Shown here piece by piece: positions 8,234-9,787 of a DNA stretch of 64,000 bases. The translations under genes and the position numbers were made by a program. Location: positions 1 through 64,000 of the IMG/VR virus record IMGVR_UViG_3300028835_002196; one strand, given 5' to 3'. The DNA is from a virus. Every line of letters starts with the position of its first letter. Position 1 is the first letter of the stretch. The notes below the pieces were generated by a model. The model saw only the letters and a program-made list of their open reading frames with translations, was not told the origin of the DNA and searched no databases.

Positions 8234-8644
8234 TTACTTTTCAAATTCAATAACAGCGTTTAATACATCTGTATATCTTTCAAACCAACCCATCATCATT
8301 TTACGCATGAGCCCAAAATCCTCACCTTTTGCATATAGTCCAATAATAGGAATACCTTTAGCGTAAGCCATTCCGCACTCGGCTGCTGCGTCTTTCCCGG
8401 AAGGAGAAATATATATAACCAGATCAGATTTCATCACTCCTTCGGAATCATACATAAAAGACTGATTTGATTCAGTTGAATTTACCCAGGTTTCAAAATC
8501 AAATTTTTTTGTAATATGATTATGATTTTCACCATAATTATTTTCGACAAACGATAATACTTCGTGACCTGCTTCACGCAGAAAAACTGTAAGCATTTCT
8601 ACAGTATGCTGATTTTTCCAAGAGCTTGCTATATATATTTTCAT
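8234..8644 (-). CDS. Nucleoside 2-deoxyribosyltransferase-like protein
   Basis: MKIYIASSW...D..GVMKSDLVI...SGKDAAAECGMAYAKGIPII matches the NDT/RCL fold motifs. Confidence 0.65.
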   Translation of the reverse strand: MKIYIASSWKNQHTVEMLTVFLREAGHEVLSFVENNYGENHNHITKKFDFETWVNSTESNQSFMYDSEGVMKSDLVIYISPSGKDAAAECGMAYAKGIPIIGLYAKGEDFGLMRKMMMGWFERYTDVLNAVIEFEK

Positions 8645-8670: not shown

Positions 8671-9070
8671 AAAACTAAACTTTACTTTACTATACAACGC
8701 CAGACGGAACTACACGGTACTATGCGATACACCACTAAACTCAATATTTTATTTAATTCCTTCAATTCTAATTATAAAACTATACTTTACTATACGCTAC
8801 CTCACACCACAAGACCTCACAATACTCAACATCACCCTACTCGACGATACGTCACACCACCATACAGCACTCAACTCAATATTTTATTTAATTTCTTTAA
8901 TTCTAATTATAAAACTATACTTTACTTTACGCTACCTCACACCACAAGACTTCACGATACTCAACAACACTCTACTTGACAAAACTTTACATCACAAAAC
9001 GTAACTTTACAACACTACACCCTACCCTACAAAACCACACAACACCATGCTCAACAGCACGGTACATTAC
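8671..9070 (-). repeat. Three pentamer-periodic arrays (GY-NNN)n separated by two 35-nt linkers; putative guide RNAs
   Basis: Plus-strand NNNAC/NNNGC units: 8671-8740 (14), 8776-8875 (20), 8911-9070 (32); linkers 8741-8775 and 8876-8910 are 33/35 identical. Confidence 0.9.
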
Positions 9071-9642
9071 TTAAATTCTTTAATTTTTTCAGCAACAAAT
9101 CTTCCAAACATACCATTGCAAGTAGGCCTGAAACTTCCAATCCCACAATGCGTACCAGCATATTTCAACACATCTTCTATTGTTGGCTTTGTAATCGTAT
9201 CATTATCAATCCACAATTCAAAATCAACCTTTAAATTGAGCCACTTGGGCCTGATCACGATAACTCTTGCCCCGGCTTTACGATTCCAGACGCTTCGCTT
9301 ATCTATAATATCCCAGGGGGGAAGCCATATTTTTTCCGGTTTAACAAAGAACATAGCTGCAACAATATTTTTCATAGACTTACGGCTATTTCCAACCTTC
9401 GCCTTCAAGTATGCTCCTGCATTGATCATTGCTCCACGCAAATGTTCGGATGGTAAATAATGCTTTTTTTCCTTCATATCGTAGTAAGAATGAAACTCAG
9501 CCCTGACATTATCAGGTTGAGAAACCTCTGGTCGTTCAATGATCGCACCACGTCTTTTTTCCCATTCGTCAAGGGTTTCGTCATCCATGCGATGTTGCAT
9601 GTATGGCGTTGTGCCAATAATTTCTACTTTGTACTTCTTCAT
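9067..9642 (-). CDS. Stand-alone Cas7/RAMP-like protein (Vipr-like), 191 aa
   Basis: Start MKKYKVEIIGTTPYMQH at 9642; YLPSEHLRGAMINA helix motif; C-terminal G-rich loop GIGSFRPTCNGMFGRF typical of RAMPs; flanked by pentamer arrays. Confidence 0.75.
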   Translation of the reverse strand: MKKYKVEIIGTTPYMQHRMDDETLDEWEKRRGAIIERPEVSQPDNVRAEFHSYYDMKEKKHYLPSEHLRGAMINAGAYLKAKVGNSRKSMKNIVAAMFFVKPEKIWLPPWDIIDKRSVWNRKAGARVIVIRPKWLNLKVDFELWIDNDTITKPTIEDVLKYAGTHCGIGSFRPTCNGMFGRFVAEKIKEFK

Positions 9643-9657
9643 AATATTTGTATTAGT

Positions 9658-9787
9658 TAAACAAAACTTTACTTTACTAGACGACACATCACTGAACTGT
9701 ACTTCACAAAACAATACGCTACTGGACGCTACTTGACTAAACTGCACCCTACTCTACTATACCCCACATTACGCCACAGAACGAGAC
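9658..9787 (-). repeat. Fourth pentamer-periodic array (26 x GT-NNN), upstream of the RAMP-like gene
   Basis: taaac aaaac tttac tttac tagac gacac ... gccac agaac gagac; all 26 units end in AC on the plus strand. Confidence 0.9.

What the first reader, a model, noticed from the sequence alone, without database searches (positions are those of the whole stretch)
8671..9787. Stand-alone Cas7/RAMP-like gene flanked by four 5-nt-periodic arrays: candidate non-CRISPR RNA-guided (VIPR-like) system
Seen: 92 pentamers in four tracts (14, 20, 32 and 26 units). On the plus strand 89 read NNNAC and 3 read NNNGC, so the transcribed minus strand is an invariant GY followed by three variable bases. The arrays directly abut both ends of a 191-aa ORF with RAMP hallmarks (YLPSEHLRGAM helix, C-terminal GIGSFRP..GMFGRF glycine loop). 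No cas1, cas2, cas3, cas5 or cas6 and no CRISPR repeat-spacer array is recognisable in the window. Known: Cas7-family RAMPs polymerise along guide RNA with a fixed nucleotide step. From memory, recently reported phage VIPR systems pair such a protein with GGY/NN repeat RNAs that read DNA through a gapped code; I cannot verify the match here. Inference: each subunit grips the constant motif, and the variable bases spell a non-contiguous target, probably in a competing phage or a host gene. The base before GY here is mostly A or U rather than G, so this could be a divergent variant.
Basis: partly seen in the sequence, partly recalled or inferred. Interest (0 to 1): 0.97.

Follow-up and report, generated by a model that had tools for sequence, protein, structure and literature searches.

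The report
Phage VIPR system with WGU-NN guides
A 76-kb phage from a subsurface metagenome carries a real VIPR system (a small Cas7-like protein flanked by four tracts of 5-base-repeat guide RNA genes) of an already published kind and repeat variant; its targets could not be found.

Summary
There are 92 in-phase pentamers in four tracts (14, 20, 32 and 26 units), and no other such tract in the phage; about 1e-10 are expected by chance. On the gene's strand each unit is G, then U/C, then three variable bases.

The 191-aa protein is a Vipr. It matches the solved SUSP1 Vipr protein by sequence (E = 1e-7, full length). Its model has a Cas7/Csm3 RAMP fold (Foldseek E = 1e-7; Z = 10.3).

All 19 relatives' loci examined (18 distinct phages; L058 duplicates L004) carry the same GY-NNN arrays beside the gene and on its strand. 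The first G of the canonical GGY is G in only 13% of units, against 86% in SUSP2. This variant is already in print as "YNNNG" and "WGT/NN".

The G-loop aspartate that reads that G in SUSP1 is an invariant serine in this clade. No vap accessory gene, CRISPR array or cas1 is present, and the 3' tails are unstructured and A/U-rich.

No target was found in the viral, metagenome or Bacteroidota genome searches, so the pairing rule for this variant is untested.

The verdict is a new member of a known kind. This scan has already noted VIPR loci on many other genomes.

The parts
9067..9642 (-). vipr gene (191 aa, P0001): a stand-alone RAMP protein. The thumb beta-hairpin is at about residues 112-134 (includes R131), and the G-loop at about 166-181 (GIGSFRP...GMFGRF).
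   Evidence: Matches PDB 36pp_D 'SUSP1 Vipr protein' at E = 9.8e-8 over residues 1-187. Matches phrog_4652 at 8e-17. About 29% identical to Felixounavirus Vipr proteins. AF2 model has pLDDT 83.9. Foldseek top hits are Csm3/Cmr4, and VIA gives Z = 10.3.
9658..9787 (-). Upstream vrRNA tract U: 26 GYNNN units, ending 15 nt before the vipr ATG. It may hold two guides, because an internal GUAUU GUUUU follows unit 16.
   Evidence: The split into two guides is inferred from tail-like A/U-rich units.
8911..9070 (-). Downstream vrRNA tract D1: 32 units, starting on the vipr stop codon. It probably holds 2-3 guides, because tail-like units occur at positions 13-15 and 17-18. Units 19-28 are a diverged duplicate of D2 units 7-16.
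8876..8910 (-). 35-nt A/U-rich linker between D1 and D2. It keeps the 5-nt phase, shows no significant structure, and may hold a promoter or processing site.
   Evidence: z-score -0.05. Its function is inferred.
8776..8875 (-). vrRNA tract D2: 20 units, of which 16 are variable and 4 are conserved A/U-rich 3' units.
8741..8775 (-). Second 35-nt linker, 33/35 identical to the first.
   Evidence: z-score +0.86.
8671..8740 (-). vrRNA tract D3: 14 units, of which about 10 are variable and 4 are conserved A/U-rich 3' units.

Best explanation
This is a phage-encoded VIPR system: a vipr gene plus four tracts that probably encode 4-7 guide RNAs (vrRNAs).

Shown here:
- The protein is a sequence homologue of the structurally solved SUSP1 Vipr and has the RAMP fold.
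- The 5-nt arrays lie on the gene's strand, and this layout is conserved in every relative examined.
- The unit is W-G-Y followed by two variable bases (equivalently GY+NNN).

Inferred from the published SUSP1 mechanism:
- The tracts are transcribed from the minus strand.
- One Vipr protomer binds per 5-nt unit and the protomers form a helical filament.
- The G and Y, and more loosely the preceding base, are flipped into protein pockets, while the two bases after Y are presented for pairing.
- The filament binds double-stranded DNA whose sequence reads NN-x-NN-x (one base skipped per unit). With no nuclease partner, it silences transcription of a competing mobile element in the host, which is probably a member of the Bacteroidota.

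Proposed reason for the relaxed first position: the G-loop aspartate that hydrogen-bonds G1 in SUSP1 (D177) is an invariant serine here. The contacts for G2 (R138 = R131; W178 = F/Y171) and for Y3 (R179 = R172) are retained.
For: Protein:
- phmmer hit to PDB 36pp 'SUSP1 Vipr protein', E = 9.8e-8, residues 1-187 against 1-190.
- the only relatives among deposited phage genomes are Felixounavirus Vipr proteins, about 29% identical over 99% of the length.
- a confident model with a Cas7/Csm3 fold.

Arrays:
- the 14 IMG/VR loci, plus L056-L060 inspected, all carry GYNNN arrays abutting the gene on the sense strand. L057 matches L056 and L058 is identical to L004.
- across the 14 IMG/VR loci, 602 units have position 1 G 100%, position 2 U 87% / C 13%, and the G1 slot G only 13%.
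- the same script on SUSP2 gives G at that slot in 38/44 units.

Contact residues:
- H17, R131-P132 and S170 are invariant, residue 171 is F/Y, and R172 is present in 41/42 clade members. D177 corresponds to S170.
- K29, aligned with SUSP1 K33 (the contact next to the skipped base), is at least 90% conserved.

Context and variant:
- YNNNG and WGT/NN variants are described beside Vipr-like proteins.
- the replicon is a complete tailed phage without cas1.
- no CRISPR array.
- duplicated guide segments differ mostly at position c (10, against 4 at b and 3 at a).
- c is depleted in G and shows no codon-like behaviour. Both results fit c being unread.
Against: - No transcript evidence: no RNA run holds the locus.
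- No natural target was found under the 1-nt-skip rule or seven alternatives, either locally or with seeded or mismatch-tolerant searches of IMG/VR, JGI metagenomes and 401 Bacteroidota genomes.
- In SUSP1, GGY>AGY was among the GGY substitutions tested, and perturbing the GGY motifs abolished silencing. The rule therefore cannot simply be assumed to transfer.
- The 3' tails have no significant structure, unlike the SUSP1 pseudoknot.
- No vap gene is present.
- The D177S covariation rests on only three lineages.
Confidence: 0.82

Rival explanations
1. This is a VIPR-type filament with a different code. Because the G1 pocket is lost, the third variable base (c) stays stacked and pairs too. Each subunit would then read three contiguous bases (GY/NNN), and the target would be ungapped or differently gapped.
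For: - Outside the tails, position c is almost as variable as a and b (1.90 against 1.93 bits).
- D177 is replaced by serine.
- The single metagenome seed hit matches c in 6 of 10 units, giving 17 contiguous nucleotides.
Against: - That hit does not extend (3/12 upstream positions), and about one chance hit is expected.
- c is depleted in G and 68% A/U, so it is semi-fixed.
- a-b-c triplets show no stop-codon avoidance in the wobble-aligned frames (14 observed, null 11.2).
- Duplicated guides diverge fastest at c.
- The period-3 seeds used would also have caught this rule, and they found nothing.
- The lysine aligned with the skip-base contact is conserved.
Confidence: 0.1
2. The tracts are DNA-level elements, such as phased protein-binding repeats or origin- or packaging-related iterons. 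The RAMP-like protein would then bind them as DNA or be unrelated to them.
For: No transcript data exist. The tracts are A/T-rich and lie in an early-gene region.
Against: - The strand polarity relative to the gene is conserved in all loci examined; only one of 74 runs lies antisense, and it is far from the gene.
- Variable positions are hypervariable between relatives while G-Y is fixed.
- The protein is homologous to a protein solved in complex with exactly this kind of RNA.
Confidence: 0.03
3. This is a remnant of a CRISPR-Cas (type III-like) system: an orphan Cas7/Csm3 whose neighbouring repeats are incidental.
For: The best structural matches in the Foldseek PDB library are Csm3/Cmr4.
Against: - No cas1 or CRISPR array is present.
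- By sequence, the only significant PDB match is Vipr, not any Cas7.
- The fold library predates the Vipr entries.
- The arrays are conserved with the gene in all relatives.
Confidence: 0.01

Closest known systems
Type II VIPR of Escherichia phages SUSP1/SUSP2 (bioRxiv 10.64898/2026.04.26.720920 and .720927; PDB 36pp)
   Same: - A small stand-alone RAMP protein of about 190-200 aa, homologous over its full length (about 29% identity).
- 5-nt repeat guide tracts on the gene's strand, both upstream and downstream of vipr (SUSP1: one upstream, three downstream; here the same count of tracts).
- Encoded by a phage, with no cas genes.
- The G2 and Y3 contact residues are conserved.
   Different: - The first G of GGY is not conserved (13% against 86% G).
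- The G1-reading D177 is a serine.
- There is no vap1 gene.
- The 3' end is a set of conserved A/U-rich in-phase units plus an unstructured 35-nt linker, not a hairpin/pseudoknot tail.
- The tracts are longer (up to 32 units).
- The host is probably a member of the Bacteroidota rather than Enterobacteria.
Non-canonical VIPR arrays: 'YNNNG' (methods of 10.64898/2026.04.26.720920) and 'WGT/NN' (10.64898/2026.10.21.760802, 21 clusters, 6,318 sequences)
   Same: The repeat consensus is the same (A/U-G-U plus two variable bases), next to a Vipr-like fold.
   Different: I cannot tell whether this clade is among those clusters, because the figures and tables are not held. Neither text that I could read gives a targeting rule, a contact-residue explanation or targets for this variant.
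Cas7-family backbone subunits of class 1 CRISPR effectors (Csm3, Cmr4)
   Same: RRM core, thumb hairpin and glycine-rich loop; one subunit per fixed step of guide RNA.
   Different: The step is 5 nt rather than 6 nt. There are no CRISPR repeats or spacers, no other cas genes and no adaptation module, and the guide is an internally periodic RNA.

Membership tests
VIPR | Vipr protein: a minimal RAMP (RRM core, thumb, G-loop) homologous to characterised Vipr | tested here: met
   SUSP1 Vipr, E = 9.8e-8, full length; 29% identity to Felixounavirus Vipr; RAMP fold, Z = 10.3.
VIPR | Tandem 5-nt repeats with a fixed motif and variable bases, flanking vipr on its strand | tested here: met
   The window has 92 units. 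All relatives examined carry such arrays.
VIPR | Canonical GGY/NN consensus | tested here: not met
   The G1 slot is G in 12/92 units here and 13% across the clade, against 86% in SUSP2. The motif matches the published alternatives YNNNG and WGT/NN, so this does not exclude membership.
VIPR | Conserved 3' tail capping each vrRNA (structured, with a pseudoknot, in the SUSP1 clade) | tested here: inconclusive
   All four tracts end in near-identical A/U-rich units and two have 35-nt linkers. No significant fold was found (z of 0 to +1.2, against -2.5 for SUSP2). Tails differ widely among relatives.
VIPR | Accessory vap gene next to vipr | tested here: not met
   No neighbour is conserved among 15 loci. 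No vap1 homologue is found even at E <= 10. The paper also describes stand-alone vipr genes, so this is not a strict requirement.
VIPR | No CRISPR array or cas genes; viral location | tested here: met
   Phage hallmark genes were found, and the record is a virus record.
VIPR | vrRNAs are expressed and co-purify with Vipr | not testable with these tools
   The only holder of the locus is a DNA run from a subsurface metagenome.
VIPR | Guides match mobile-element DNA by the 1-nt skip rule | tested here: inconclusive
   No match above chance was found in local DNA, IMG/VR seeds, a JGI metagenome seed, three MAGs or 401 Bacteroidota genomes. The searches were seed-limited or samples.
CRISPR-Cas class 1 (Cas7/Csm3) | Cas7 encoded in a cas operon with a repeat-spacer array | tested here: not met
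   None of the related loci shares any gene with the others except vipr.

The most novel reading that the evidence does not exclude
In this serine-G-loop clade the former G1 position may have become a third guide base. The filament would then read three contiguous bases per 5-nt unit (GY/NNN), a pairing code different from the published two-bases-plus-one-skip rule.
Probability: 0.1. Interest if true: 0.7.

Novelty: new member of a known kind. Interest (0 to 1): 0.3.

Why it matters
VIPR was described only in 2026 and has been characterised experimentally mainly in the GGY/NN type II systems of enterobacterial and Pseudomonas phages.

This locus is a clean example of the WGU/NN variant, without a vap gene, in an uncultured phage that probably infects Bacteroidota. 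It belongs to a clade of more than 400 metagenomic relatives.

The clade offers a natural experiment on how the protein specifies its repeat scaffold. The single G-loop change D177 to serine coincides with loss of the G1 requirement. If that change is causal, it identifies a specificity determinant and a more permissive scaffold for engineered guides.

In itself, though, the finding confirms published biology rather than extending it.

Tried and rejected
Protein and RNA family searches:
- Pfam gave nothing for the protein.
- Rfam gave no family in the window or in three relatives' loci.
- The sigma-70 promoter scan found 6 sites against 6.8 expected, so no promoter call is possible.
- ARAGORN found no tRNA in L059.

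Target search, all negative:
- Eight pairing rules were tested against all DNA held locally; real guides scored the same as shuffled guides.
- IMG/VR seed D2[4-12] gave 0 hits.
- The seed shared by D1 and D2 gave 41 hits in about 15 families; the best extension was 7/16.
- Seed U[5-12] gave 12 hits, and seed D3[2-9] gave 10 hits; neither extended.
- The JGI metagenome 10-unit seed gave one hit (L083). It did not extend, and its skipped base falls at codon position 2, so I judged it chance.
- The L059 guides found nothing in three MAGs.
- Full-length D2 and U guides with up to 3 mismatches gave 0 hits in 401 sampled Bacteroidota genomes.

Other attempts:
- No RNA holder is listed among public runs.
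The contig of the 88%-identical relative P0002 and the NCBI-held relatives could therefore not be examined.
- The type (I-VII) could not be assigned, because the paper's figures and tables are not held.
- The stop-codon test for a-b-c triplets showed no signal.

Full report
**Observation.** The four tracts are exactly as described. On the + strand, 8671-8740, 8776-8875, 8911-9070 and 9658-9787 hold 14, 20, 32 and 26 in-phase pentamers. Of these, 89 read NNNAC and 3 read NNNGC. No other run of five or more such units exists on either strand of the window or of the whole 76,246-bp genome. About 1e-10 runs of 14 units are expected by chance.

On the minus strand each unit is G (100%), U/C (97%/3%), then three variable bases. 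The tracts abut ORF 9067-9642(-). The downstream tract starts on the stop codon, and the upstream tract ends 15 nt before the ATG. Two 35-nt linkers, 33/35 identical, keep the phase across the three downstream tracts. All four tracts end, in RNA sense, with near-identical A/U-rich units of the form GUAAA GUAAA GUWUA GUUUU.

**The protein.** Pfam finds nothing. A sequence search of the PDB gives one significant hit, 'SUSP1 Vipr protein' (36pp), at E = 9.8e-8 over residues 1-187 against 1-190 of 202. PHROGs places the protein in phrog_4652, a family of unknown function, at 8e-17.

Among 50,697 deposited phage genomes, the relatives are almost all Felixounavirus-type (SUSP1/SUSP2-like) proteins, about 29% identical over 99% of the length. 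An AlphaFold2 model built on 42 clade members (pLDDT 83.9) matches Cas7-family backbone subunits. Foldseek's top hits are all Csm3/Cmr4 at E about 1e-7 and probability 1.00. An independent all-against-representatives alignment gives Z = 10.3 to Csm3 over residues 1-191. That fold library predates the Vipr structures, which is why they do not appear in it. The secondary structure shows an RRM core, a beta-hairpin at about 112-134 (the thumb) and a glycine-rich loop at about 166-181.

**What is known.** VIPR (Viral Interference Programmable Repeat) systems were reported in 2026. They pair a Vipr RAMP protein with vrRNAs made of 9-16 GGY/NN pentamers followed by a 3' tail. The NN bases pair with double-stranded DNA while one target base per unit is skipped. 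The complex represses transcription, and natural targets are competing satellites and prophages. Seven types and six vap accessory genes are described.

The methods of that paper state that loci lacking YNNGG repeats have 'NNNGG, YNNNG, and NNNNG' repeats. A later preprint that mapped intergenic space found 21 clusters (6,318 sequences) of non-canonical 5-mers next to Vipr-like folds, including 'WGT/NN'. GY+NNN is YNNNG in another register. With the preceding base about 70% A/U, it is WGU/NN.

**Relatives.** The clade is large. There are 431 relatives at E <= 1e-3, the 120 best listed being 59-88% identical. Nearly all are metagenomic and none is named. In the 14 IMG/VR loci, GYNNN arrays of 6-23 units abut the gene on its own strand. 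Only one of 74 runs lies antisense, and it is far from the gene. The further loci L056-L060 carry the same arrays; L057 matches L056, and L058 is the same phage as L004.

Over 602 units from the 14 IMG/VR loci, position 1 is G in 100%, position 2 is U in 87% and C in 13%, and the slot of the canonical first G is G in 13%. The same script applied to SUSP2 gives G at that slot in 38 of 44 units. Array architectures vary:
- separate cassettes with promoter-like linkers (L003);
- back-to-back guides separated by one in-phase non-GY unit (L009, L014), resembling the paper's 'staggered' arrays;
- tails with a GC hairpin plus a T-run (L004, L008, L010);
- tails with a tRNA-like minihelix (L059).

Nothing but vipr is shared among the neighbourhoods. 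No vap1 homologue is detectable in this phage or in the relatives' loci. The paper itself mentions stand-alone vipr genes.

**Replicon and host.** The genome is a virus record estimated to be complete. It encodes tail-fibre and virion structural proteins, a primase/helicase, RecE/RecT-like proteins and a DNA methyltransferase. It has no cas1 and no CRISPR-like array.

The only public run that holds the locus is a subsurface metagenome DNA run, which is probably the source sample. Three relatives lie on phage-sized contigs binned into a Cyclobacteriaceae MAG, a Draconibacterium MAG and a Pacearchaeota bin. The host is therefore probably a member of the Bacteroidota, but this is an inference.

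**Mechanism.** In the SUSP1 structures, G1 is read by H17 and D177, G2 by R138 and W178, and Y3 by R179 together with helix-1. K33 contacts the backbone next to the skipped target base.

In this clade H17, R131-P132 (aligned with R138) and the G-loop G-x-G-S are invariant. Residue 171 is F or Y (aligned with W178), and R172 (aligned with R179) is present in 41 of 42 members. K29, which aligns with K33, is at least 90% conserved, although the alignment in that region is weak.

The one contact that changes is D177, which becomes an invariant serine. The distant L056 lineage also has GIGSFRP, lacks the H17 equivalent and likewise has no G1. I therefore propose that loss of the aspartate relaxes the G1 pocket. 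This rests on three lineages and is a hypothesis. In SUSP1, GGY>AGY was among the GGY substitutions tested, and perturbing the GGY motifs abolished silencing, so the tolerance seen here differs functionally from the tested system.

**Is the third variable base read?** Several results bear on this.
- Outside the tails it is nearly as variable as the other two (1.90 against 1.93 bits), but it is depleted in G and 68% A/U.
- Duplicated guide segments differ mostly at this position: 10 differences, against 4 and 3 at the other two.
- a-b-c triplets show no stop-codon avoidance in the wobble-aligned frames (14 observed, 11.2 expected).

These results fit the published two-base reading with a loosely specified scaffold base. 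They have little power, and about a 10% chance of a three-base code remains.

**Targets.** None was found.
- Eight pairing rules gave real = shuffled on all local DNA, in agreement with the paper's finding of no self-targeting.
- Period-3 seeds, which also cover the three-base rule, gave 0, 41, 12 and 10 hits for four guide segments in IMG/VR. These collapse into a few gene families in mixed frames, and none extends beyond chance.
- A 10-unit seed in JGI metagenomes gave one hit. Only 3 of 12 upstream positions matched, and the skipped base falls at codon position 2, so I judged it chance.
- Guides of the MAG-associated relatives found nothing in those MAGs.
- Full-length D2 and U guides with up to 3 mismatches found nothing in 401 sampled Bacteroidota genomes.

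These searches were exact-seed or sample searches, so the negative result is weak. Earlier notes of this scan warn that bold target-class claims for VIPR guides partly failed later checks, so I make none.

**Other features.** The linkers and tails of this locus have no significant structure (z of 0 to +1.2). The SUSP2 vrRNA with its tail folds at z = -2.5. The long tracts contain internal tail-like units, so they probably encode several guides head to tail. That would bring guide lengths nearer the published 9-16 units, but it is an inference.

**Verdict.** It is a new member of a known kind. What it adds is modest: a clean vap-less WGU/NN example in a probable Bacteroidota phage, clade-wide statistics, and a testable contact-residue explanation for the relaxed first position. 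This scan has already noted VIPR loci on many other genomes.

Noticed in passing
L059:3653-3690 and L059:3774-3811: In the relative binned with a Draconibacterium MAG, each guide is followed by an 11-12-bp hairpin with a 7-nt T-loop-like loop (GGUUCGAUUCC). This is a tRNA-like acceptor/T-arm minihelix (z about -2). It could recruit host tRNA-processing enzymes to cut the guides, by analogy with the hammerhead-interspersed arrays in the VIPR paper. ARAGORN and Rfam do not call it.
   Followed up: partly
L009:2619-2973 and L014:3599-4018: Six to nine guides of 8-14 units lie head to tail in one phase. Each is separated from the next by a single non-GY pentamer (TTNNN), resembling the 'staggered' arrays of the VIPR paper.
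   Followed up: no
window 9042-9065 (-): The first guide units after the vipr stop codon form a 10-bp terminator-like hairpin followed by a weak U-rich stretch. It may attenuate read-through from vipr into tract D1, or it may be coincidence.
   Followed up: no
window 8946-8970 vs L003:3919-4028; L007:3800-3914 vs L012:3813-3862 and L012:3983-4037: Five-unit guide segments are shared between different phages whose Vipr proteins are only about 50-60% identical. This suggests common targets or exchange of guide cassettes.
   Followed up: partly
L013:2953-3546: The vipr gene of this 142-kb viral contig appears split into two ORFs (107 and 48 aa matched) while the flanking arrays persist. It may be a frameshifted or decaying system.
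   Followed up: no
L083:4863-4891: A JGI metagenome contig matches the concatenated a-b-c bases of guide D2 units 7-12 over 17 contiguous nucleotides, antisense in a 431-aa ORF. I judged it chance, but it is the only hint that the third base could be read.
   Followed up: yes
genome G000:C1:72750-72960 (outside the window): A 24-nt tandem repeat (GGAGGTGTTCCTTCGCCT...) is present in at least seven copies. It probably lies in a coding region and is not CRISPR-like.
   Followed up: no
window 8234-8644 (-): A nucleoside 2-deoxyribosyltransferase-like gene (phrog_12607, 1e-13) lies immediately downstream of the last guide tract. It is not conserved next to vipr in relatives.
   Followed up: partly
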